A model generated the notes under the pieces. That model was not told the origin of the DNA. It did no database searches and was given only the letters and a program-made list of their open reading frames with translations. The translations under genes and the position numbers were made by a program. A stretch of DNA of 46,316 nt from an uncultured bacterium (GTDB lineage Bacteria; Patescibacteriota; Minisyncoccia; Phycocordibacterales; UBA918): positions 1-46,316 of the forward strand of contig CAJWTE010000001.1 in assembly GCA_913046815.1 (NCBI GenBank), given 5' to 3'. This document shows, in pieces, positions 388 to 16,416 of this stretch (within the stretch, counting starts at the first letter, position 1; each line of letters begins with the position of its first letter).

Positions 388-763
388 GCGTCCAAATCTA
401 ATTCACTTTGTTCATAAGATTTACCTGCCCGAGAATTTGAATATTTTGCTCTAGGAAAGAAGCAAAATACATACAAATTCTTTTCAAGTCTCTGCGTAAG
501 CAAAATTGTTTGCTTACTCATCATACCCAAATCAAAAACCCGCAAAGCGGGCCTTGATTTGTGCACATAGTAAGACCACGCTTGAACTTTTTGAAAGGGT
601 GGTAAAAGAGCATGATTTACTTCAAGAATGGAATAAGGAAATAAGGGAATTTCTACAACAGGAAAGAAAACAGCCAATAATAAAGGTAACGTATTAGCCG
701 TTATTTTATGCGTCATAGAACAGCATTGATTTAATTGAACTATAGGGGGTAGGAAATGGTAAT

Positions 764-976
764 ATGTCAGGAATGCAACCAGATAAGAAAAAAGACAATC
801 TGACTGACGTAGTTGAACAGGTATCAAAACCAGCGGAAAAACCCGCAACGGTTGGTGATGGGCAGGTTGTATCTGGTGGTGAAGTGGTCACACTTGGTAT
901 TGATGCTGAACTGCAAAAAGATATTGATAAGACCGCCAAAGAAATTGTTAATTTAATCAATAAGAAACGGAAATGA
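764..976 (+). CDS. Hypothetical small protein (70 aa), translationally coupled to the next gene
   Basis: gggggtagg SD-like sequence upstream. The stop overlaps the next start (ATGA at 973-976). No recognisable motif. Confidence 0.45.
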   Translation: MSGMQPDKKKDNLTDVVEQVSKPAEKPATVGDGQVVSGGEVVTLGIDAELQKDIDKTAKEIVNLINKKRK

Positions 977-1698
977 AAATTTTACAGCTGAACACATGGG
1001 GCGGGCGGTTAGGTTCAAAAATCAAAGAAGTTATTAATAGGGAACAGCCAGACATCGTTTGTTTTCAAGAAGCCATAAAGGTTGAGGGCGGAAGTGGTTT
1101 TGTTTTTGATGAATTAAGTGAAATTCAGGAAGATACTGGTTTTGAACATTGTTACTTTTCAGCCAGTTTTGGTTGGAAGTTGATGAAGCGTGAAGCACAA
1201 AGCGGTTTAGCAACTATGAGTAAGTTACCGTTTAGTCACACTGACAATGCTTTTACACGTCTTGAATATATTACTGACTTTGACATTCTTGATACTGACT
1301 ACAACGTGAGAAGCTTACAGCACGTAACCGTTGACTATGACGGTAAACAGGTTCATGTTCTTAATCATCACGGCCATCACGTGCCTAACCATAAAGACGG
1401 TGATGAAGAAACCATGCGCCAGTGTCAGATGATTGTTGACTATCTTGATAAGTTAGATGGTCAAATTGTTTTGTGCGGTGATTTCAACCTAAAACCAGAC
1501 AGTAAATCTTTAGGGCTAATTAACGCTAAATTACTGAATCATGCAAAAGAAAGGGGTGTTTTGACTACCAGAACGCCACTAACACATAAAACAGAAGTTT
1601 GTGATTACATTTTCACCAGTTCAGATATTGAAGTCAAAGATTTTCAGGTACTTGATGACATTGCATCTGACCATAAAGCATTAACTTTAGAGTTTTAG
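973..1698 (+). CDS. Endonuclease/exonuclease/phosphatase (EEP) family metal-dependent hydrolase
   Basis: N-terminal ILQLNTWGG...PDIVCFQE, and C-terminal ...SDHKALTLEF, typical of the EEP fold. Confidence 0.8.
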   Translation: MKILQLNTWGGRLGSKIKEVINREQPDIVCFQEAIKVEGGSGFVFDELSEIQEDTGFEHCYFSASFGWKLMKREAQSGLATMSKLPFSHTDNAFTRLEYITDFDILDTDYNVRSLQHVTVDYDGKQVHVLNHHGHHVPNHKDGDEETMRQCQMIVDYLDKLDGQIVLCGDFNLKPDSKSLGLINAKLLNHAKERGVLTTRTPLTHKTEVCDYIFTSSDIEVKDFQVLDDIASDHKALTLEF

Positions 1699-1699
1699 T

Positions 1700-2356
1700 A
1701 TGGAACACAAAGCAGTCATTGATAAGACAGTAGATTTTGTAAAACAGACCCTTGCAGAAGCAGAAGGTGGTCATGATTGGTGGCACATCTACCGTGTTTG
1801 GAAGAACGCCCAACACATTGCTAAAGCAGAAGGTGATGTTGATGTGTTGGTAGTTGAACTTGGTGCACTATTGCATGACATAGCTGATTCCAAGTTTCAT
1901 GATGGTGATGAAGAAATTGGTCCTAAAACAGCTCGTGATTACCTTACAACTTTAGAACTGCCAGATGATGTGATTGAACATGTAGAAAATATTGTTCGTC
2001 ATATTTCTTTTAAAGGTTCTTTGGAAGGTCAAAAGTGGACATCACCTGAATTATCTGTGGTGCAAGACGCTGACAGGTTAGACGCTATTGGTGCCATTGG
2101 TACCGCTCGCACCTTTAACTATGGTGGCCACAAAGGAAGGGCCTTATATGACCCAAATATTAAGCCAAACTTGGAAATGACCAAGGAAGAATACAAAAAT
2201 AGTACAGCCCCAACCTTGAATCACTTCTATGAAAAGTTGTTGCTGTTGAAAGACCTAATGAATACCAAGGCAGGTAAGGAAATGGCAGAAGGTCGCCACA
2301 AGTTTATGGAACTGTATTTAGAACAGTTCTACGCTGAATGGGAAGGTGAACGGTAA
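1700..2356 (+). CDS. HD-domain phosphohydrolase (YpgQ/YedJ-like)
   Basis: GGHDWWHIYRV..., LLHDIADSKF, VVQDADRLDAIGAIGTARTF. A 1-nt gap separates it from the upstream gene. Confidence 0.8.
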   Translation: MEHKAVIDKTVDFVKQTLAEAEGGHDWWHIYRVWKNAQHIAKAEGDVDVLVVELGALLHDIADSKFHDGDEEIGPKTARDYLTTLELPDDVIEHVENIVRHISFKGSLEGQKWTSPELSVVQDADRLDAIGAIGTARTFNYGGHKGRALYDPNIKPNLEMTKEEYKNSTAPTLNHFYEKLLLLKDLMNTKAGKEMAEGRHKFMELYLEQFYAEWEGER

Positions 2357-2360
2357 ACCT

Positions 2361-2996
2361 TTATTTTTTGGCACTGAACATCTTTAACGAACCATCTTCA
2401 TCAATCACAGCATAATGGTAGTCACTCATGAGTAAGAACGGGGGCTCGCTGTCTTTGTAAGCTAATTTCAGCCGTTCATCTAAATACATCTGCTTAAAGT
2501 GTTCTGAACCCCAATGCGGGACCACGATGGTGTTTGTGAACCGAAAACCCGTGTAATCATCAAGGGTTATACCTTCAGCATCTTCAAGGTAAACAGGAAT
2601 TTTAGGACCCGCAATTATTGAACCAGCACTGGTTCCAATGTATGGCTTACCATTTCGCACTTTTTCAACAATCAAATCAAACGAACCCGTTTCTTGTAGT
2701 TTTTGAAGCAGGTAAATGGTATTACCACCACACATGTAGAGCACATCATACTTATCAAATTCAACTTCAATTTCTTCTTTAGTTTTTCCTGTCACAGTGA
2801 AGCGGTCTACTTGATAACCTTGGTCACGTAGCCCCTTCAGGTCAGCTTGTAGCCAATCATCATCACCTTCAACTTTACCAATTTCAGGTTCTGATGCTGT
2901 ATCAATAAACAAAATTGTTTTGTACCCCTTATCTGATAAACGGTGTTGGTAGATATGGCTTGCCACTGTCGCCACACTTGAAGTAAGAATAATCAT
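2361..2996 (-). CDS. Peptidase S51 (dipeptidase E-like) family protein
   Basis: MCGGNTIYLL, IGTSAGSIIAGP, VPHWGSE: a Ser/His triad context typical of S51. Confidence 0.7.
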   Translation of the reverse strand: MIILTSSVATVASHIYQHRLSDKGYKTILFIDTASEPEIGKVEGDDDWLQADLKGLRDQGYQVDRFTVTGKTKEEIEVEFDKYDVLYMCGGNTIYLLQKLQETGSFDLIVEKVRNGKPYIGTSAGSIIAGPKIPVYLEDAEGITLDDYTGFRFTNTIVVPHWGSEHFKQMYLDERLKLAYKDSEPPFLLMSDYHYAVIDEDGSLKMFSAKK

Positions 2997-3051
2997 TTCG
3001 TCAGTATAGCAAAATCAAGCTAAACAGGTCTATTTTTGGTAAAATAGGGGA

Positions 3052-3933
3052 ATGAATGAACCAATCACTGTAAAGGCGCTTACAGACGCAATGGACACAT
3101 CTGCAAAGATTGCCCAGTCACCTGGTCTGATGACTATTGCTGACCGTCTTTTTGGTTTTAAGTTAAGCGAGTGGAAGGCGCAGGGTGACATTGTAAAAGC
3201 CCAAATGCAACAAGAATACAAAGAAGCCAGTGAAAAGGGGCTTGGCTTTCAATACGTTACTGCCTTTCGTGACAAAGCAAATGTATTGAACACACTTGCT
3301 AAAGCCACAGATTACGTTAAAGAAAACTTTGAACGTGAAATTGAATTTGATGAAGACGTCTTTTGGAACCTGATTGAACATTCCAAAACAATCTCACAAG
3401 AAGAAGTTCAAGATTTAGTTGCAAAGATAATTGCTGGTGAATACAACCAACGGGGAACGTATACAACCCACACCTTACAGGTGCTGAAGTCATTAGGGCG
3501 AGATGAATTAAGCAAGCTTGAAAAGCTTGGTTGTCTGGTGGTCAACACCAACATGATTCCAGTTAACCTGTTTAAGTTAACTGATGGTTATGAAAGTTTT
3601 ATTGAAAGTATTGGAATTAACTTTACTGAATTCCAGACCTTGCAAAGTTTAGGTCTGGTTCATAATAATTCAGCAACAAAAGAAATCAGTAATGATTCAG
3701 GTAAAAAGTTTGCTGTCAGTTACTTTGATAGACAGTTAATATTTGCATCAAATAAGGAAGCTGTTGGAAAAATTCAAATACCAAGCTTTTATCCACTGAC
3801 AGATACTGGTTTGCAACTTCTTCAGCACCTACAACCTTCTGTAAATGAAGCTTACTGTGAATGGTTGAAAGAAAATTACAAAATCGGGAACTATGATTTT
3901 GAAGACGTTATTAACGTTAATTATGCGGGGTAA
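3052..3933 (+). CDS. DUF2806-like protein (phage/Abi-associated family); function unknown
   Basis: The segment LVAKIIAGEYNQRGTYTTHTLQVLKSLGRDELSKLEKLGCLVV resembles the LAGE..PGSFS.RTL..L..L signature of DUF2806, recalled from memory. Confidence 0.45.
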   Translation: MNEPITVKALTDAMDTSAKIAQSPGLMTIADRLFGFKLSEWKAQGDIVKAQMQQEYKEASEKGLGFQYVTAFRDKANVLNTLAKATDYVKENFEREIEFDEDVFWNLIEHSKTISQEEVQDLVAKIIAGEYNQRGTYTTHTLQVLKSLGRDELSKLEKLGCLVVNTNMIPVNLFKLTDGYESFIESIGINFTEFQTLQSLGLVHNNSATKEISNDSGKKFAVSYFDRQLIFASNKEAVGKIQIPSFYPLTDTGLQLLQHLQPSVNEAYCEWLKENYKIGNYDFEDVINVNYAG

Positions 3934-4303
3934 AAAGCGTACAACAGAAGAACAGCACGAACTTTTTGAAGCTATGGAAAGGTATTTAGAAATGGGCTTT
4001 TCAATGAAAAAAGCTTGTGAATTAAGTGATATTCCGTATTCAACCTACCGTGACATTCTGGCTTCTAATGAACGAGTTCGTGCTAAAACCAGGGCACTTC
4101 AGAACTTGGTAAATGTTCAAGCAAGACAAAATATCATCAATAGCATAAGTAAAGGCAACATCAACGATTCCAAGTGGTGGCTGGAACGCATGGACCAAAT
4201 GGAACATTGTACTGACCCTGGTATTGGTGGCCACACTGAATCGTCTACTTCAATAGCAGAAGTGTTGGTTGAAGATTTGTTTAAGGAAACTTCTAAAAGT
4301 TAA
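3923..4303 (+). CDS. Helix-turn-helix protein, small-terminase/RDF-like
   Basis: The internal ATG at 3923 (MRGKKRTTEEQ...) overlaps the upstream stop. HTH segment GFSMKKACELSDIPYSTYRD. A later ...SKWWLERMD resembles the TerS-type N-domain pattern. Confidence 0.45.
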   Translation: MRGKKRTTEEQHELFEAMERYLEMGFSMKKACELSDIPYSTYRDILASNERVRAKTRALQNLVNVQARQNIINSISKGNINDSKWWLERMDQMEHCTDPGIGGHTESSTSIAEVLVEDLFKETSKS

Positions 4304-4305
4304 AT

Positions 4306-5923
4306 ATGAAGATACCTTCTACCCCTGAAGAATTAGTTGAAGCCCTCACACTTGTATCTGAAACCAGTAAAGATGTTGCGCCAGAAGATTTTAGATATGT
4401 TTTGTATGTTCGCAAATCTACTGATGATAAAGACAAACAGGTCCGTTCACTAAAAGACCAGATTGCAGAATGTCGTGAGTTTGCAGAAGACCAGAACATA
4501 AGGGTAGTGAAAATCATTCAGGAATCTGAATCAGCTAAACAACCTGACATCAGGCCAGGGTTTAGAAAGATGCTGGAGGACATCAAGGCAGGTGTATATG
4601 ACGGCATACTTGCTTGGCACCCTGACCGCCTGGCTCGCAACATGAAAGACGCTGGTGAGATTATTGACCTACTTGATAAAGGCATCATCAAGAATCTTAA
4701 ATTCAAAAGTTTCAATTATGAAAATTCATCTGCTGGCAAGATGCACCTTGGTATCACCTTTGTGCTTTCAAAACAGTATTCTGACCATTTAAGTGAAAGT
4801 GTTAGTAGAGGTAACAAACGTAGTGTTGCGGAAGGAAAGTTTTTAAGCACGCCACCACACGGCTATTTTAAGGACCAGGAACAGTTTTTGCGGGCTGATG
4901 GTGATAAATTACATCATCATTAAAAATGCCTTCAGAATGCGACTTGAAGAAAAGACCTTGCAGGCAATAGCTGAATACATTGTTAGTAGTGGTTACAGTA
5001 AGTTGCGAAAAGACGGTACCCGTTACGCACCAAAAATAAATAAACAGACGGTGAAGAAGATAATGTCCAACCCTGTTTATACAGGTGTGCTTTGGTATGG
5101 AAAAAAGAACCCTGTGAATCTTTGTGACCTGTACCCATTTGCACCCATGGTTTCAGTTGAAGAATTCATGAGAATTAACCACCTTACTGAAGCGGGGTTT
5201 GCTGAACTGTCAGGTAGATATGGTGGTAAAGATTCTATTAAGGCGGACCTGATGCGTGACATGGTGATTTGTGATGTCTGTAAAGAATCTATGTCTGCAG
5301 GTATTACACCAAAGAAAACCAAAGATGGTAAAACCAATTATTTTTACTACCGTTGTGATTCACCAGAATGCCCAGTGTATGGAAAGTCCACCCGTGCCAA
5401 AGTGGTTGTTGATTACGTTTGTCACTATCTTGAACAAAAGCCATTTTCATCACGCCAGGCATACACCCACTATGAAAAGGAAATGAAGCGTGTTGCAAAT
5501 GAAAGAATCTTGGAAGCTAAAGGTACTTTGCGTTCACTTAAAGCAAAGTTGAATAACGCCACTGAACGTTATGAAAAAACAAAAATGTTGTTAGTTGATG
5601 GTGATGAAGATATGAAGGAATTCTTCAAAGATGATTTGCGTATGTATGAAAAGCAACGCAAACAAGTTCAGAAAGACATTGCGAAAGTGGAACAAATAAT
5701 TGAAAAGGGGAAGGCCAGCGTTTTGACGTATGAAGAATTCCTTGAACTTATGGAAAAGATGCCTAAAACTATAGCTAAATTAGGTAATATGACTGACTTG
5801 GACTACGTCATCAAAAAAATCTTCTTGAACTTTTCTATTTGTGATAAAAAGGTAATAAAATCAACCCTTAAATCACCCTTTGATAGTTTAGAAACATTGA
5901 ATGTCCCTGGTTGTGCGCGATGA
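4306..5923 (+). pseudogene. Large serine recombinase split into two ORFs (4306..4923 and 4898..5923) by a 1-nt frameshift
   Basis: Resolvase catalytic domain: YVRKSTDDKDKQVRSLKDQ, HPDRLARN. Recombinase and Cys-rich zinc-ribbon region: CDVC...YYRCDSPEC. C-terminal coiled coil. Removing one A from the AAA run at 4906-4908 joins the frames (...ADGDNYIIIKNAF...). Confidence 0.8.
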
Positions 5924-5931
5924 GAGACTTG
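5911..5931. repeat. attR-like core inside the tRNA-Val 3' end
   Basis: Direct repeat of 367-387. It also contains the last codons and stop of the recombinase ORF. Confidence 0.7.
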
Positions 5932-5986
5932 AACTCCCGACCTTCTCGGTGTAAACGAGCTGCTCTACCAACTGAGCTAATCGCGC
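5914..5986 (-). tRNA. tRNA-Val (anticodon TAC), no encoded CCA
   Basis: The reverse complement folds as a 73-nt cloverleaf: acceptor GCGCGAT/ATCGCGC, D arm GCTC-AGTTGGTA-GAGC, anticodon loop TTTACAC, T arm GGGAG-TTCAAGT-CTCTC. Confidence 0.9.
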
Positions 5987-12008: not shown

Positions 12009-12121
12009 AAATACATTCTACTAACCGATCTGGCTATCAATTCATACTTATAAACACTCACATACTCCAATCGAATGGACCATTTGACAGACAAAAAAGT
12101 TACGTAAGTCATTCATATATC

Positions 12122-12186
12122 CTCCCCGAGGTTAAACCTCGGGGAGAGAGTAAAAAGAATTAGTGAGATAACTCACCAATTCTTTT
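12122..12186 (-). terminator. Two tandem hairpin terminators downstream of the tRNA-His locus
   Basis: ctccccgagg-ttaaa-cctcggggag, and aaaaagaattagtgag-ataa-ctcaccaattcttttt (U-tract on the minus strand). Confidence 0.5.
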
Positions 12187-12328
12187 TATTTCGAACAGAA
12201 GCCAGTCTTAGCTCTTGCAGATCATTTTACACACTGGGCAAAATGGCATCCAATGCATGAAGCCAGTCAGCAACACTGCTAGGCCAGTGAGAGATTCAAA
12301 CTCTGGCCATGAGCTGTTTAGCATCAGG

Positions 12329-12435
12329 GGAAATGGGGTCAGACACCATTAAATCTAAAAAGGTGTGGTGTAATAATCTTACATTAAAACACCCCAAAAA
12401 GGGAATGTTTTGATTTGTTGATGGGGCGACTACCG
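12329..12435. repeat. Left copy of the ~108-bp direct repeat (tRNA-His 3' end plus trailer)
   Basis: Aligns with 13769-13876 at a 1440-nt offset, with 3 substitutions and 1 indel. It ends in tggggcgactaccg, a diverged copy of the tRNA-His 3' 14 nt. Confidence 0.85.
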
Positions 12436-12540
12436 ACCCTCGGGTGGAACCAATTGGAAGAGTTGTGTCTTGAATGGTTAAGCGACGCAAGGGTTTGTTT
12501 CGGGTGATAGGGCAGAAAGTGGTTCCACTGGGCCGGTAGG

Positions 12541-12578
12541 GAAAAGAAAAAGCCACCCGCCCAATAAGGGAGGATGGC
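12541..12578 (-). terminator. Terminator of the GC-rich cassette
   Basis: On the minus strand, GCCAUCC-13 nt-GGGUGGC is followed by UUUUUCUUUUC, 23 nt after the exonuclease stop. Confidence 0.5.
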
Positions 12579-12600
12579 AGTTGTGCAAGCCGATTGTTCT

Positions 12601-13155
12601 TCAGGAAATCTTCAGACCATCCTGAATCATCTTGGCGAAGGCCCCGGCGTTGCCCCGAGTGTCTTCGAGGGCGTCGTGGGTGTGCGCTTCGGTTCGGAAC
12701 TCTTCCCACGCATCACGGCTTCCGTAGAGGCCGAGCGACAGGCACGGAATATTTCGTCCAGCATAGCCAAACGGATTCTTGCTGCGATAGCGGTGGAAGT
12801 AGGTGTGGACGAAGCCCCAGTCGAACGCCAGATTGTCGGCGACGAAAATCGGCTTCGATGCTCCGTTGTCGTCCAGAGTGATTCGGATGAAGTGCTGAAG
12901 CTTCTGCATCGCAATTACCGGTTTGAGCAGGTCGTCTCGTTGCATCCAAAGCTCCGGAGTGAACCCCAGGTCACGCTGGAGGAAATCCAGTGTGTCGGGG
13001 TCATGTTGGTCCGTCGAGAAGGCCAGGTTGCAGGACATACCCTGCAGTACTGTACCGTCAGCCAGGACGGGCACCGTCGCCATCTGATACATGTTGTGGA
13101 TTGCGAACGCCGGACCGGTGGTCTCAGTGTCCGTCACAAAGTAGACTTTTGACAT
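12601..13155 (-). CDS. DEDDh-type 3'-5' exonuclease (DnaQ/DexA-like)
   Basis: Exo I FVTDTETTG, Exo II FVADNLAFDWGF, Exo III HTHDALEDT. The start is set at the ATG at 13155, preceded by GGAAGGAG. Confidence 0.8.
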   Translation of the reverse strand: MSKVYFVTDTETTGPAFAIHNMYQMATVPVLADGTVLQGMSCNLAFSTDQHDPDTLDFLQRDLGFTPELWMQRDDLLKPVIAMQKLQHFIRITLDDNGASKPIFVADNLAFDWGFVHTYFHRYRSKNPFGYAGRNIPCLSLGLYGSRDAWEEFRTEAHTHDALEDTRGNAGAFAKMIQDGLKIS

Positions 13156-13156
13156 C

Positions 13157-13543
13157 TCATTCTCCTTCCGTTTCGTTACGATAGCTGGCTTTGTAGCCGA
13201 GGTTGGCAAGTTCAAGCTCAACCGAAAGACTTACGAGTACCCCTTCGTTCCAGTCGAGGAGCCTTCGGCAGCCGTCATGGATGAGCTCAGTTCGTTGCTG
13301 GTGATTCTTCACACGTTCAGGGAAATTGTGAGCCCTGAAGTGAACGTTGATGTCGGGGGCATTGATGTCCTCTTCATCGCCAGCCTGAAGCCTGACAATC
13401 ACTTCTTTTTCAGTGACACCACCTTCGTGACGAGGCGCACCTTCAACGTTAAGGTGTGGGGCGGCAAGTCGTGGCAACGCTTCAGCGAGAACGAGGGCAA
13501 ACAGCCGATTTTCCTTTGAATAAGTGAGTATTGCAGTGGGCAC
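13157..13543 (-). CDS. 128-aa protein with N-terminal Met-Pro; possibly tautomerase-superfamily-like
   Basis: GTG start with AGGAG 7 nt upstream. A duplicated beta-alpha-beta-like pattern (MPTAILTYS..., ...DINVHFRAHNF...). The TGA stop lies 1 nt before the exonuclease ATG. Confidence 0.5.
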   Translation of the reverse strand: MPTAILTYSKENRLFALVLAEALPRLAAPHLNVEGAPRHEGGVTEKEVIVRLQAGDEEDINAPDINVHFRAHNFPERVKNHQQRTELIHDGCRRLLDWNEGVLVSLSVELELANLGYKASYRNETEGE

Positions 13544-13768
13544 GTTTCATCTCCTGTAAAGGTTCTTTGTACTGGTTTCGACTCGAACAATGCCACAAAT
13601 ACTTCCTTTATTCAATACTTTTTGGTACTGTGGCTCTTGAACTAGTAAACAAACAGAAGAAAGGTCTTTGATATGACAGTGGGAGTAGACCACGAATACA
13701 TACCAGAAAATGCAGTCAAGGGTGACACACCAGGCCCACGGCCAGATGTACGCACCACCTACTGCGAA

Positions 13769-13876
13769 GGAAATGGGGTCAGACACCATTAAATCTAAAA
13801 AGGTGTGGTGTAATAATCTTACATCAAAACACCCCGAAAAGGGGAATGTTTTGATTTGTTGATGGGGCGGCTACCG
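13769..13876. repeat. Right copy of the ~108-bp direct repeat, overlapping the intact tRNA-His 3' end
   Basis: See 12329-12435. This copy keeps the better CCCC-gaaaa-GGGG trailer hairpin. Confidence 0.85.
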
Positions 13877-13938
13877 GGAATCGAACCCGAATTTCCGGTA
13901 CCACAAACCGGCGTAATGACCGTTATACAATAGCCGCC
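13863..13938 (-). tRNA. tRNA-His (anticodon GTG) with encoded G-1 and CCA
   Basis: The reverse complement is G-1 + GCGGCTA...CCGGT-TTGTGGT-ACCGG...TCGGG-TTCGATT-CCCGG-TAGCCGC-C-CCA. The G-1:C73 pair is the His identity element. Confidence 0.9.
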
Positions 13939-14471: not shown

Positions 14472-14511
14472 AAATCGCCACGCAATTACGTCCGTAATTG
14501 CGTGGCGATTT
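14472..14511 (+). terminator. Terminator after mscL
   Basis: aaatcgccacgcaattac-gtccg-gtaattgcgtggcgattt, an 18-bp stem. Confidence 0.65.
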
Positions 14512-15102: not shown

Positions 15103-16416
15103 ATGGAAATCGAAAAGATTCGCAAGCGCGATGGTTCGATCCAAGCTTTTACGCTGGACAAAATCACCAACGCTGTTGAAAAAGCTCTACGCAAAACTGA
15201 AACTGGCACTCGAGAGGATGCCGAAAATATTGCTGTCCGTGTAAACGAAAAGACGGTCGCTATGTGTGTTCAAGCGGCAGCCGCAGAACCTGGTGCACCG
15301 GGCGCTGATAAATGTGTTGACGGGTATCCGGCAGTAGAAGAAATACAAGACATTGTAGAGCAAGTTCTGATGGAGATGGACTTTTTTGATGCCGCGAAAG
15401 AATATATTCTATATAGAAACGAAAGAAAGAAACTCCGCGCCCGCGACATATTCCACAAGCGTACCAATCTAAAGCCGTACGAGTACCCAGAACTAGCAGA
15501 GTATGTAGATGCTATTCGTCACTCTTACTGGATTCATACTGAGTTTAATTACACCAGTGATATTCACGATTATAAAGTAAATATTACAGATGCAGAGCGA
15601 ACGGCTATCAAGAATACCATGCTCGCCATTGCGCAGATTGAAGTAGCAGTAAAGACTTTCTGGGGCAACTTGTACAACAAAATGCCAAAACCAGAGATCG
15701 GCGCAGTCGGCTTTACCTTTGCAGAAAGTGAGGTTCGACACATGGACGCTTACTCTCATTTGCTGGAGATTCTTGGTTTAAATGACGAATTCACCACTCT
15801 TACAGAGGTGCCTGTAATACAAGAAAGAATTACTTATCTAGAAAAGGTGATAAATCTTTCCAAAACAGACGAAGACAGAGAGTACTCTCAAGCAGTGCTC
15901 CTGTTCTCTCTTTTTGTGGAGCATGTATCTTTGTTTTCTCAATTCCTGATAATGATGTCCTTTAACAAGCATAAAAACTTATTCAAAGGTATCAGCAATG
16001 CCGTTGAAGCCACATCCAAGGAAGAACAAATTCATGGGATGTTCGGTATCGATCTAATTAATATTATCAAGAAAGAAAACCCCGCCTGGTTCGATGATGA
16101 GCATAAAGCATTGGTAGAAGACATGTGCAATGAAGCATATGAAGCTGAAGCAAAGATTGTGGATTGGATATTTACCGACGGAGAAATGGAGTTCTTACCG
16201 AAGGCTGTAGTACTTGAATTTATTAAGTCTCGTCTCAACAACTCACTCAAGAGTATCGGTTTGGATCCAGTGTTTGAACTAGACCAAGACTTGGTGGAAC
16301 AAACGGACTGGTTCGATGATGAAGTGATTGCTACCAAGCACGTAGACTTCTTCGACAAACGTTCTATTAATTACAACAAACGCAGTGGCAGTGTTACGAG
16401 TGCTGACCTGTTTTAA
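15103..16416 (+). CDS. nrdB: Ribonucleotide reductase beta (radical-generating) subunit with an N-terminal ATP-cone
   Basis: ATP-cone: IRKRDGSIQAFTLDKITNAVEKAL...VEEIQDIVEQVLME...AKEYILYRNERKKLR. Ferritin-like ligand motifs: AQIEVAV, ESEVRHMDAY, FVEHV, KEEQIHG. Confidence 0.85.
   Translation: MEIEKIRKRDGSIQAFTLDKITNAVEKALRKTETGTREDAENIAVRVNEKTVAMCVQAAAAEPGAPGADKCVDGYPAVEEIQDIVEQVLMEMDFFDAAKEYILYRNERKKLRARDIFHKRTNLKPYEYPELAEYVDAIRHSYWIHTEFNYTSDIHDYKVNITDAERTAIKNTMLAIAQIEVAVKTFWGNLYNKMPKPEIGAVGFTFAESEVRHMDAYSHLLEILGLNDEFTTLTEVPVIQERITYLEKVINLSKTDEDREYSQAVLLFSLFVEHVSLFSQFLIMMSFNKHKNLFKGISNAVEATSKEEQIHGMFGIDLINIIKKENPAWFDDEHKALVEDMCNEAYEAEAKIVDWIFTDGEMEFLPKAVVLEFIKSRLNNSLKSIGLDPVFELDQDLVEQTDWFDDEVIATKHVDFFDKRSINYNKRSGSVTSADLF

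What the first reader, a model, noticed from the sequence alone, without database searches (positions are those of the whole stretch)
12329..13876. Recombinase-less GC-rich islet at tRNA-His between ~108-bp direct repeats
Positions 12329-12435 and 13769-13876 are direct repeats at an exact 1440-nt offset, differing by 3 substitutions and 1 indel.
- The right copy contains the last 14 nt of an intact tRNA-His(GTG) (13863-13938, minus strand) plus about 94 nt of its trailer, which includes two hairpins.
- The left copy carries a mutated orphan tRNA 3' end (tggggcgActaccg) and a weakened trailer hairpin.

Between the repeats lies a block (about 12440-13560) that is visibly much more GC-rich than the rest of the window. 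By eye it is high-50s percent GC against about 40% for the flanks. It encodes its own SD-led two-gene operon and its own terminator (12541-12578).

No integrase, transposase or inverted repeats are present. The repeat is also far longer than a normal att core because it extends into the tRNA trailer. This suggests one of three origins: a decayed island, a cassette mobilised in trans, or acquisition by homologous recombination through a captured tRNA-trailer segment. The compositional jump points to recent transfer from a high-GC donor.
Basis: partly seen in the sequence, partly recalled or inferred. Interest (0 to 1): 0.75.

Follow-up and report, generated by a model that had tools for sequence, protein, structure and literature searches.

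The report
Truncated recombinase-less cassette at tRNA-His
The GC-rich islet is a cut-down copy of a small mobile gene cassette that carries no recombinase, from a family that stacks in head-to-tail arrays behind the tRNA-His gene of ultra-small Patescibacteria; this array system does not seem to have been described.

Summary
In detail: two 107/108-nt direct repeats (3 substitutions, 1 indel), an intact tRNA-His, and a block at 53-55% GC against 42%. Three independent assemblies match it exactly.

**What the islet is.** It is a truncated copy of a ~2.4-kb four-gene cassette. A 97%-identical copy elsewhere (L012) continues past the right junction into an intact gene. The window keeps only 32 codons of that gene.

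**The cassette end.** It ends in a 116-nt conserved arm (12424-12541) whose last bases copy the tRNA-His acceptor 3' strand. I found 65 such arms in 20 contigs:
- Arms are always co-oriented within a contig.
- Median spacing is 1.1 kb.
- Seven loci begin at tRNA-His.
- I recognised no integrase in the array contigs I examined.

**The junctions.** The left repeat is an ordinary attR-type junction. The right junction lies exactly at the outer end of a solo terminus of a Patescibacterial IS200-like (Y1) insertion sequence. A secondary event therefore created the second trailer copy.

**Cargo.** A tautomerase-fold protein and a DEDDh exonuclease related to CBASS-associated Exo.

Partly right. The "high-GC donor" idea is not supported. 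The recombinase that moves these cassettes is still unknown.

The parts
13863..13937 (-). Intact tRNA-His(GTG) with encoded CCA. It anchors the insertion site.
   Evidence: ARAGORN; Rfam tRNA model at 57.4 bits. The mscL and RNR genes lie next to tRNA-His in the window, L006, L106 and L109 alike.
13769..13876 (-). Right direct repeat: the last 14 nt of tRNA-His plus its native 94-nt trailer, which holds a terminator-like hairpin, a second hairpin and the insertion-sequence terminus.
13769..13790 (-). Solo terminus of the Patescibacterial IS200-like (Y1) insertion sequence, aatggtgtCTGACCCCATttcc. Its outer end is exactly the repeat/islet junction at 13768|13769.
   Evidence: Motif search gives 2 matches in the window against 0.03 expected. 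The same motif flanks the Y1 gene copies in 11 loci as inverted termini ending ...CCCCATTTC(C).
13673..13768 (+). 5' fragment (32 codons, MTVGVDHEYIPENAVKGDTPGPRPDVRTTYCE) of a third cassette gene, 'exo2', cut off by the junction.
   Evidence: L012 carries the intact 195-aa gene. Its 97% identity to the window stops at 13769. Exo2 has weak DEDDh matches (PADLOC 1.4e-4, KapD 0.017).
13157..13543 (-). geneA: a 128-aa protein with a tautomerase-superfamily fold and a retained N-terminal Pro.
   Evidence: No Pfam, NCBIfam, PADLOC or PHROG match. Only 6 homologues in 5.8 billion proteins. AlphaFold pLDDT 79.8, pTM 0.75, beta-alpha-beta twice. Foldseek top hits are CHMI, cis-CaaD, MIF and 4-OT at E 1e-4, TM 0.5-0.6.
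12601..13155 (-). exo1: a 184-aa DEDDh exonuclease related to the CBASS-associated Exo (Cap18) clade.
   Evidence: PADLOC PDLC00753 'Effector/Exonuclease' at 4e-22. The family profile hits PDB 7t2s '3'-5' exonuclease' at 3.5e-16 and RNase T at about 1e-5 to 1e-6. Residues D9, E11, D107, H160 and D165 are invariant.
12541..12578 (-). Terminator-like hairpin plus U-run of the geneA-exo1 operon.
   Evidence: Fold energy -19.9 kcal/mol, z = -2.55.
12424..12541 (-). Cassette 3' arm ('t2'): a conserved block of about 116 nt, CCTACCGG CCCAGTGGAACC ... GGTTCCACCCGAGGGTCGGTAGTCGCCC, ending in a copy of the tRNA-His acceptor 3' strand.
   Evidence: 90-94% identical copies in L018. 26 distinct copies aligned. 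nhmmer finds 65 t1/t2 arms in 20 contigs. Shared cassettes end 0 to -2 nt from ...GTCGCCC.
12329..12435 (-). Left direct repeat: the cassette's own core (cggtagTcgcccca) joined to a second copy of the tRNA trailer. This is an attR-type junction.
   Evidence: The T/C difference matches the cassette consensus (T), not the host tRNA (C).
12329..12350 (-). Second solo copy of the insertion-sequence terminus. Its outer end is the outer boundary of the left repeat (12328|12329).

Best explanation
The islet is a truncated member of a family of small (0.5-5 kb) gene cassettes that carry no recombinase. In Saccharibacteria and other Patescibacteria these cassettes accumulate head-to-tail directly downstream of tRNA-His.

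**Cassette layout.** A complete cassette starts right after the motif ...GTCGCCC, carries 1-4 genes on either strand, and ends in a conserved arm. The arm is either 't2' (about 116 nt) or 't1' (about 75-100 nt), and its last bases repeat the tRNA-His acceptor 3' strand.

**How it gets in (inferred).** A recombinase encoded elsewhere joins the cassette's core to the tRNA-His 3' end, or to the core of the previous cassette. The tRNA stays intact and a new landing site is created, so arrays grow.

**In this window.**
- The cassette originally had four genes: a 134-aa gene and exo2 on one strand, geneA and exo1 on the other.
- The left repeat (t2 arm, core, trailer) is the normal distal junction.
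- The right junction is secondary. It cuts exo2 at codon 32 and lies exactly at the outer end of a solo IS200-like (Y1) insertion-sequence terminus that closes the tRNA trailer.

**Most likely history (inferred).** A 1440-nt segment (the exo2 5' stub, geneA, exo1, t2 arm, core, trailer and insertion-sequence end) came from a closely related strain that carried the full cassette. It entered an unoccupied tRNA-His locus at the identical insertion-sequence end. The join was made either by the Y1 transposase or by homologous recombination through the trailer.

**Cargo (inferred).** A DEDDh exonuclease of the CBASS-Exo type plus a tautomerase-fold protein. They probably act on small nucleotide or metabolite substrates rather than on cassette movement.
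For: **The islet is a cut-down cassette**
- L012 matches window 12433-13769 at 97% over 1337 nt, then continues into an intact 195-aa gene and a 134-aa gene. The right junction is therefore a truncation point.
- The L012 left end matches the cassette 5' arms seen after other cores.

**The arm marks cassette boundaries**
- The t2 arm is conserved at about 90% among cassettes with unrelated cargo.
- 65 arms occur in 20 contigs. Every contig is strand-uniform, and median spacing is 1122 nt.
- tRNA-His lies directly upstream, in the same orientation, in the window, L006, L019, L103, L104, L106 and L109.
- In L103 and L104 the cassette starts immediately after ...GTCGCCC of the tRNA.
- Cassettes shared between different contexts stop 0 to -2 nt from the core end.

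**Where the crossover fell**
The orphan core carries the cassette's T and the tRNA keeps the host's C. That places the crossover 3' of that base.

**No local recombinase**
None was recognised in the array contigs examined. The basis is precomputed Pfam lists, two Pfam scans, a motif screen and reading the remaining ORFs of 170 aa or more.

**The insertion-sequence terminus**
- It has 2 matches against 0.03 expected.
- The same motif forms the inverted termini flanking the Y1 gene copies in 11 loci, ending ...CCCCATTTC(C).
- Both repeat boundaries fall at that end.

**Real DNA**
Three assemblies are 100% identical across the structure.

**Cargo**
plus bioRxiv 10.1101/2025.03.04.641389.
Against: - No recombinase has been linked to the t1/t2 arms, so the integration step is inferred from anatomy alone.
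- The recombinase screen was partial. Most array ORFs were read by eye, not run against Pfam.
- No empty site (tRNA-His with one trailer) and no full-cassette allele was recovered for this species, so the order of events is a reconstruction.
- The t2 arm shows no compensatory base changes, so it gives no clue whether the substrate is double- or single-stranded.
- No Y1 gene lies in the 46-kb window.
- In L006 a trailer-like unit also follows the tRNA and each of two cassettes. Trailer duplication may therefore be a regular product of the system, not a one-off secondary event.
- The metagenome contigs were retrieved with a t2 pattern, which biases what was seen.
Confidence: 0.7

Rival explanations
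1. The second trailer copy arose by homologous or homology-facilitated illegitimate recombination alone, with no Y1 transposase. A linear or circular fragment from a related strain, ending in core plus trailer, recombined through the 108-nt homology. The other end joined by chance at the end of the trailer. This rival concerns only the right-junction step.
For: - The repeats are long (108 nt) and 96-97% identical, enough for RecA-type recombination.
- No Y1 gene lies in the window (one search finds only the two solo termini).
- The 3 substitutions and 1 indel fit divergence between a donor and a recipient strain.
Against: - Both repeat boundaries coincide to the base with the outer end of an insertion-sequence terminus (...CCCCATTTCC|). 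A random illegitimate join would not be expected to do that.
- Stuttered partial termini beside Y1 copies elsewhere hint at repeated joining at this end.
Confidence: 0.3
2. The IS200-like Y1 (HUH) transposase moves all the cassettes. On this view the t1/t2 arms and the tRNA-His 3' end are its single-strand substrates, and the arrays are peel-and-paste insertions 3' of GTCGCCC.
For: - The Y1_Tnp gene is the only DNA-joining enzyme recognised in the arrays, in 6 of 17 metagenome contigs.
- Insertions are strictly orientation-specific, with no target duplication and sharp boundaries after a short motif.
- Most cassette starts begin with a hairpin.
- The cores contain GTAG or CGTC, the tags of REP repeats (short repeated hairpin elements) that are linked to Y1-type transposases (PMC3733652).
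Against: - The Y1 gene has its own, different inverted termini (AATGGTGGCTGACCCCATTTCC) and moves as a 722-nt unit on its own.
- Genomic regions with Y1 copies have no t1/t2 arms or cores.
- The arm hairpin shows no covariation.
- Arms carry a degenerate copy of the tRNA T-arm plus acceptor, which is typical of attP sites used by tyrosine integrases.
Confidence: 0.12
3. The islet is a classical tRNA-borne genomic island that once carried its own integrase and has decayed to a two-gene remnant.
For: - It has an orphan tRNA 3' end, a compositional jump and a truncated gene at one edge.
- A degraded serine recombinase lies elsewhere in the window.
Against: - The near-identical fuller copy (L012) runs from a cassette 5' arm to the t2 arm in about 2.4 kb and has no integrase.
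- About 45 neighbouring cassettes are equally small, and none showed a recognisable recombinase.
- The serine recombinase abuts tRNA-Val, not tRNA-His.
Confidence: 0.08
4. This is a native, vertically inherited operon next to tRNA-His with a local tandem duplication of the trailer, or an assembly artefact.
For: geneA also lies by tRNA-His next to mscL and RNR in L006, with identity (65%) similar to that of the flanking MscL (61%).
Against: - 97% nucleotide identity to L012 with a different flank.
- GC and tetranucleotide z-scores of about 5.
- The t2 arm is shared with unrelated cassettes.
- exo1 appears with other partners and in other contexts.
- Three assemblies agree exactly.
Confidence: 0.04

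Closest known systems
Tycheposon islands of Prochlorococcus: successive integrations at tRNA genes (bioRxiv 10.1101/2020.12.28.424599)
   Same: - Variable islands form behind a tRNA gene in streamlined genomes.
- New elements push older ones further in.
- Neighbouring elements are separated by partial tRNA copies.
- Cargo is adaptive or defence-type.
   Different: - Tycheposons are 10-20 kb and encode their own tyrosine or large serine recombinase, and often replication genes.
- Here the units are 0.5-5 kb and carry only cargo, with no recombinase recognised in any of them.
- Each unit has a conserved arm of about 116 nt or about 75-100 nt.
CIMEs (cis-mobilizable elements) and tandem accretion at att sites of ICEs/IMEs (reviewed in PMC5704250)
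   Same: Elements are bounded by att-type sites, lack recombination genes, and are presumed to be moved by an integrase supplied in trans. They build up in tandem at one site.
   Different: - CIMEs are deletion derivatives of specific ICEs, and a cognate ICE is usually identifiable.
- Here no parent element is seen.
- The cassettes form a large, diverse family with two conserved arm types in many genomes.
Integron gene cassettes and CALIN arrays (from my own knowledge, not tested against literature here)
   Same: - Co-oriented arrays of small promoter-poor or self-contained cassettes.
- Each cassette ends in a recombination element of 60-140 nt with an imperfect inverted repeat.
- Small paired ORFs that look like toxin-antitoxin genes (by size only) are common cargo.
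- The cassettes themselves carry no recombinase.
   Different: - There is no attC signature (R''/R' RYYYAAC...GTTRRRY).
- No intI or attI lies beside the array.
- The anchor is a tRNA gene whose 3' end is copied by every cassette.
- Genes lie on both strands with their own promoters and terminators.
- No covariation supports a folded site.
IS200/IS605-family insertion sequences and REP-associated Y1 transposases (RAYT/REP systems; PMC3733652)
   Same: The repeat ends carry a solo terminus of a Y1_Tnp insertion sequence. Solo and stuttered termini are scattered like REP repeats (short repeated hairpin elements). The join at the exact terminus suggests HUH-type cleavage.
   Different: - The islet holds no transposase gene.
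- The two termini are direct, not inverted.
- The mobilised DNA is a fragment of another element.
CBASS-associated Exo / Cap18 DEDDh nucleases (bioRxiv 10.1101/2025.03.04.641389; PDB 7t2s)
   Same: exo1 matches the PADLOC CBASS exonuclease model (4e-22) and PDB 7t2s (3.5e-16), and keeps all the DEDDh catalytic residues.
   Different: - No CD-NTase or other CBASS gene lies nearby.
- Partners vary: a tautomerase-fold protein, a His_Phos_1 phosphatase, or none.
- The substrate is untested.

Membership tests
tRNA-targeting integrative element (integrase-mediated island) | Direct repeat of the tRNA 3' end at the distal junction, with the tRNA left intact | tested here: met
   The orphan core cggtagTcgcccca lies at 12422-12435 and tRNA-His is intact.
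tRNA-targeting integrative element (integrase-mediated island) | Element encodes its own integrase | tested here: not met
   None in the islet, in L012 or in the array contigs examined. The array screen was partial.
Integron cassette / CALIN | attC site with R''/R' core (RYYYAAC...GTTRRRY) and a folded bottom strand | tested here: not met
   The arm ends ...GGTCGGTAGTCGCCC with no GTTRRRY. Its only inverted repeat is 8 bp, with 0 compensatory pairs. No attC covariance model was available.
Integron cassette / CALIN | intI plus attI next to the first cassette | tested here: not met
   The first cassette abuts tRNA-His. Upstream lie mscL and RNR.
CIME (cis-mobilizable element) | Bounded by att sites with no recombination or transfer genes | tested here: met
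   Cassettes run from core to core and hold cargo only.
CIME (cis-mobilizable element) | Derived from, and mobilised by, an identifiable cognate ICE or IME | not testable with these tools
   No whole genomes of array carriers could be screened. No parent element was seen in about 200 kb of array contigs.
IS200/IS605 (Y1 HUH) element | Y1_Tnp gene between the family's inverted termini | tested here: not met
   The window has two direct solo termini and no Y1 gene. Complete insertion sequences are seen in L098-L100, L107, L108, L113 and L115-L120.
IS200/IS605 (Y1 HUH) element | Junction exactly at the insertion-sequence terminus | tested here: met
   ...CTGACCCCATTTCC| lies at 13769 and at 12329. 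The same end is seen in 11 loci.
Tycheposon | Site-specific recombinase, with or without a replication module, in each element | tested here: not met
   See the integrase rows above.
CBASS-associated Exo (Cap18) clade, for exo1 | DEDDh catalytic residues and a match to the family model | tested here: met
CBASS-associated Exo (Cap18) clade, for exo1 | Encoded in a CBASS operon with a CD-NTase | tested here: not met
   No such neighbour appears in the window or in any related locus.
CBASS-associated Exo (Cap18) clade, for exo1 | Selective cleavage of 2'-5' linkages | not testable with these tools
   This is a biochemical property.
Tautomerase superfamily, for geneA | Beta-alpha-beta fold with an N-terminal Pro | tested here: met
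   The model shows beta-alpha-beta twice. Foldseek hits CHMI, cis-CaaD and MIF at TM 0.5-0.6. The N-terminal sequence MPTAIL is conserved in 6 of 7 homologues (the seventh lacks the first 8 residues). The match is moderate only.

The most novel reading that the evidence does not exclude
Patescibacteria may possess an undescribed cassette-capture system. Arrays are anchored at tRNA-His and resemble integrons. They hold small cassettes without recombinases, each ending in a conserved arm that regenerates the tRNA-His acceptor end as the next landing site. An as yet unidentified trans-acting recombinase would drive it. The window's islet would be a cassette fragment moved a second time through an IS200-like terminus.
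Probability: 0.4. Interest if true: 0.8.

Novelty: new variant of a known kind. Interest (0 to 1): 0.68.

Why it matters
Patescibacteria have tiny genomes, and how they gain and shuffle accessory genes is poorly understood.

A single hotspot behind tRNA-His would give a concrete, testable route for their gene flux. It collects many small self-contained cassettes: transporters, acetyltransferases, kinases, small paired ORFs that look like toxin-antitoxin genes, a reverse transcriptase and nucleases.

It would also be a new example of cassette logic outside integrons. The conserved arms are a ready search handle for mining such arrays and for finding the recombinase.

The cargo exonuclease, related to CBASS Exo but found without CBASS, may be of interest for nucleotide-signal degradation.

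Tried and rejected
- **Rfam.** Gathering and E-value scans of the islet found only the tRNA.
- **Viral contigs.** Scans for the arm and for the trailer gave 0 hits.
- **Folded arm.** An attC-like or RNA structure for t2 was rejected as unsupported, with 0 compensatory pairs.
- **Coding remnant.** The t2 arm as a leftover coding sequence was rejected because of stop codons in many copies and no clear third-position (period-3) pattern of variation.
- **Y1 acting on the arms.** I first suspected the Y1 transposase used t1/t2 as its ends. I downgraded this when its own termini were found and Y1-rich regions lacked the arms.
- **High-GC donor.** Distant exo homologues in Verrucomicrobiota, Anaeromyxobacter and Pyrinomonadaceae are 30-38% identical and sit beside kdsA, CTP synthase and kdsC. 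They are not donors.
- **Empty site.** None was recovered for this species. All three other assemblies carry the islet, and the nearest relatives (L106, L109) have other trailers.
- **Recombinase screens.** A regex screen for tyrosine or serine recombinases in array ORFs found nothing, but it is weak. I did not run Pfam on every array ORF. The ORFs of 170 aa or more were read by eye.
- **exo2.** The profile comparison to the exo1 family was not significant.
- **tRNA-Val island.** No tRNA-fragment repeat was found for it.
Full report
**1. The observation**

They differ by 3 substitutions and 1 indel. tRNA-His(GTG) lies on the minus strand at 13863-13937. Its last 14 nt plus a 94-nt trailer form the right repeat.

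The left repeat carries cggtagTcgcccca, against cggtagCcgcccca in the tRNA. Its first hairpin is weaker.

The block between the repeats has 52.7% GC, and its two genes 54.9%, against 42.1% for the rest of the window. That is z = 4.9, with a tetranucleotide z of 5.2.

The window matches contig PAMK01000008.1 of a marine MAG, GCA_002708195.1. Its proteins are also listed from Tara Oceans data. Two further assemblies are 100% identical across both repeats and junctions (ENA ERZ908593 from Tara run ERR599159, and JGI 3300020447). A chimeric misassembly is therefore very unlikely.

**2. The cargo**

Two genes lie on the minus strand, both after Shine-Dalgarno (ribosome-binding) sequences, and a hairpin plus U-run follows them.

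*exo1 (12601-13155)*
- It is a DEDDh exonuclease.
- It matches the PADLOC CBASS 'Effector/Exonuclease' model at 4e-22.
- Its family profile hits PDB 7t2s at 3.5e-16 and RNase T weakly.
- The catalytic D, E, D, H and D residues are invariant.
- A recent preprint shows that CBASS-associated Exo enzymes cleave 2'-5'-linked dinucleotide intermediates (10.1101/2025.03.04.641389).

*geneA (13157-13543)*
- It has no family match and only six homologues in 5.8 billion proteins.
- Its model (pLDDT 79.8) has a duplicated beta-alpha-beta fold.
- The model matches CHMI, cis-CaaD and MIF tautomerases at TM 0.5-0.6, and the N-terminal Pro is retained.

*Relatives*
- Close relatives of exo1 (48-99% identity) occur only in Saccharibacteria or Patescibacteria MAGs and unbinned contigs.
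- Homologues at 30-38% in other phyla sit among housekeeping genes.
- exo1 appears with different partners: geneA, a His_Phos_1 phosphatase, a 217-aa protein, or alone.

No high-GC donor is indicated. The cassette copies elsewhere have 47-54% GC.

**3. The islet is a truncated cassette**

A Logan contig, L012, matches window 12433-13769 at 97% over 1337 nt. It then continues with different sequence. That sequence is an intact 195-aa gene, transcribed divergently from geneA, followed by a 134-aa gene.

The window keeps only the first 32 codons of the 195-aa gene (13673-13768). They are cut exactly at the inner edge of the right repeat. The gene, exo2, has weak DEDDh matches.

The L012 left end matches the 5' arms that follow cores elsewhere (...GATTTTTCTAGTGTCTGGTGGACTTAGTGGAAC). 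The complete unit is therefore about 2.4 kb with four genes and no recombinase.

**4. A conserved arm and arrays behind tRNA-His**

The stretch between the exo1 terminator and the left repeat (12424-12541) recurs at 90-94% identity twice in a Saccharibacteria MAG contig, L018, where it flanks an unrelated MFS gene. It ends exactly in GGTAGTCGCCC, the tRNA-His acceptor 3' strand.

L018 holds at least six such ends in one orientation, 0.8-1.4 kb apart. They fall into two arm types, t1 and t2.

An exact-pattern scan of JGI metagenomes returned 17 contigs. With profile HMMs of both arms I counted:
- 65 arms in 20 contigs.
- Every contig strand-uniform.
- Median spacing 1122 nt, range 474-5375.

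tRNA-His lies directly upstream in the same orientation in L103, L104, L106 and L109, as it does in the window, L006 and L019. In L103 and L104 a cassette starts immediately after ...GTCGCCC of the tRNA.

Cassettes shared between different contexts lose similarity 0 to -2 nt from the core end. Examples are L098/L107 (94% over 2380 nt), L107/L113, L018/L112 and L103/L109. The unit of exchange therefore runs from core to core.

The cargo is diverse. It includes an MFS transporter, GNAT-ASCH, kinase-like and hydrolase-like proteins, small ORF pairs of 86-110 aa, and a reverse transcriptase. Several of these labels come from reading the sequences only.

Upstream of tRNA-His, mscL and RNR are conserved.

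**5. What moves the cassettes**

I recognised no tyrosine or serine recombinase in the array contigs I examined. This screen was partial. The only DNA-joining enzyme seen is a 224-aa Y1_Tnp protein, in 6 of 17 contigs.

That protein belongs to a very large Patescibacterial family. It has its own inverted termini, AATGGTGGCTGACCCCATTTCC, and travels as a unit of about 722 nt. Y1-rich regions elsewhere have no t1/t2 arms. I therefore regard it as a separate insertion sequence living in the arrays.

The arms contain a degenerate copy of the tRNA T-arm plus acceptor. They also carry repeated GTGGAAC motifs around the core. Both features fit an attP-like site for a recombinase acting in trans.

There is no covariation for a folded site, and the arm is not coding. 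The enzyme is unknown, and this is the main gap.

**6. The two junctions in the window**

*Left junction.* The order t2 arm, core, trailer is what integration at the tRNA 3' end predicts. The core keeps the cassette's T and the tRNA keeps the host's C. The crossover therefore lay in or after CGCCC.

*Right junction.* This one is not canonical. The tRNA is followed by its own CCA and trailer, not by a cassette 5' arm, and then by a gene stump.

The last 22 nt of each repeat (aatggtgtCTGACCCCATttcc) are a solo Y1 insertion-sequence terminus. It has 2 matches against 0.03 expected. Both repeat boundaries coincide with the terminus end seen in 11 other loci.

The simplest history is that a 1440-nt segment from a close relative with the full cassette entered an unoccupied locus at that terminus. 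The segment runs from the exo2 stump through geneA, exo1, the t2 arm, the core and the trailer to the terminus.

Whether the Y1 enzyme or plain homologous recombination made the join cannot be settled here. I weight them about equally, with a slight lean to Y1 because of the exact boundary.

One caveat applies. In L006 a trailer-like unit follows the tRNA and each of two cassettes. Trailer duplication may therefore be a more regular outcome than I assume.

**7. Comparison with known systems, and verdict**

| Known system | What matches | What does not |
|---|---|---|
| Tycheposon islands | Growth behind a tRNA gene, partial tRNA copies between units | Those elements encode their own recombinase |
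| CIMEs | No recombination genes, att-type boundaries | No parent element is seen here |
| Integron cassettes | Array logic | Tested defining features are not met (no attC core, no intI or attI) |

I could not find a description of tRNA-His-anchored cassette arrays in Patescibacteria. The library searched is limited, so this is not proof of novelty.

I rate the finding as a new variant of a known kind. The window feature itself is a decayed cassette, and the family behind it is the interesting part.

Noticed in passing
window 3052-5986: A small island-like block lies beside tRNA-Val(tac) (5913-5986, minus strand). It holds a DUF2806 protein, a 136-aa ORF and a large serine recombinase split into two ORFs: Resolvase at 4306-4923 and Recombinase at 4898-5923. 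The recombinase 3' end overlaps the tRNA. No tRNA-fragment repeat was found.
   Followed up: partly
L098-L100, L107, L108, L113, L115-L120 (e.g. L119 9961-10740): A Patescibacterial IS200-like insertion sequence of about 722 nt. It encodes a 224-aa Y1_Tnp protein between inverted termini AATGGTGGCTGACCCCATTTCC, often with stuttered partial copies of the terminus. The protein has more than 7,800 homologues at E <= 0.001, and the named ones among the best hits are all from Patescibacteria.
   Followed up: yes
L119 10001-18203; L120 6349-14551: Two co-oriented Y1 insertion-sequence copies bracket a seven-gene cluster, like a composite transposon. The cluster holds GNAT, RNHCP, radical SAM/SPASM, MR_MLE, M20 peptidase, ATP-grasp and racemase genes. 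The same 525-kb contig carries at least five Y1 copies within 45 kb.
   Followed up: no
L006 7711-7910, 9026-9227, 10504-10600; L019 8938-9105; L106 3832-; L099 after 4135; L110 after 1035: A recurring unit follows tRNA-His or a t2 core. It consists of a terminator hairpin, an inverted copy of the tRNA-His 3' end interrupted by a bulged hairpin, about 80 nt of spacer, and a direct copy of the tRNA 3' end. It could form a long hairpin and offers a second landing core. Its role is unexplained.
   Followed up: partly
L108 5845-6798; L118 2367-4254: A reverse transcriptase gene (YxDD motif) lies beside a truncated Y1 copy inside an array. In a Y1-rich region, a bAvd gene lies near an RVT_1 gene, a pairing that suggests a diversity-generating retroelement.
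   Followed up: no
window 12009-12328: A 320-nt stretch without ORFs lies between the left repeat and the 123-aa membrane-protein gene. It has two strong hairpins (12151-12188 and about 12124-12150). It may be bidirectional terminators or the remains of older cassettes.
   Followed up: no
window 14472-14511: A perfect 19+19-nt palindrome (AAATCGCCACGCAATTACG / CGTAATTGCGTGGCGATTT) lies just after mscL.
   Followed up: no
window 15103-16416: The ribonucleotide reductase small-subunit protein (437 aa) carries an N-terminal ATP-cone, according to the precomputed Pfam list for the same gene in L121.
   Followed up: no
L018 6883-9306: An 807-aa protein with an NPPY motif sits immediately upstream of the cassette array in the Saccharibacteria MAG. 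It may be an N6-adenine methyltransferase or restriction enzyme, but it has no Pfam match. No tRNA-His is found on that contig.
   Followed up: no
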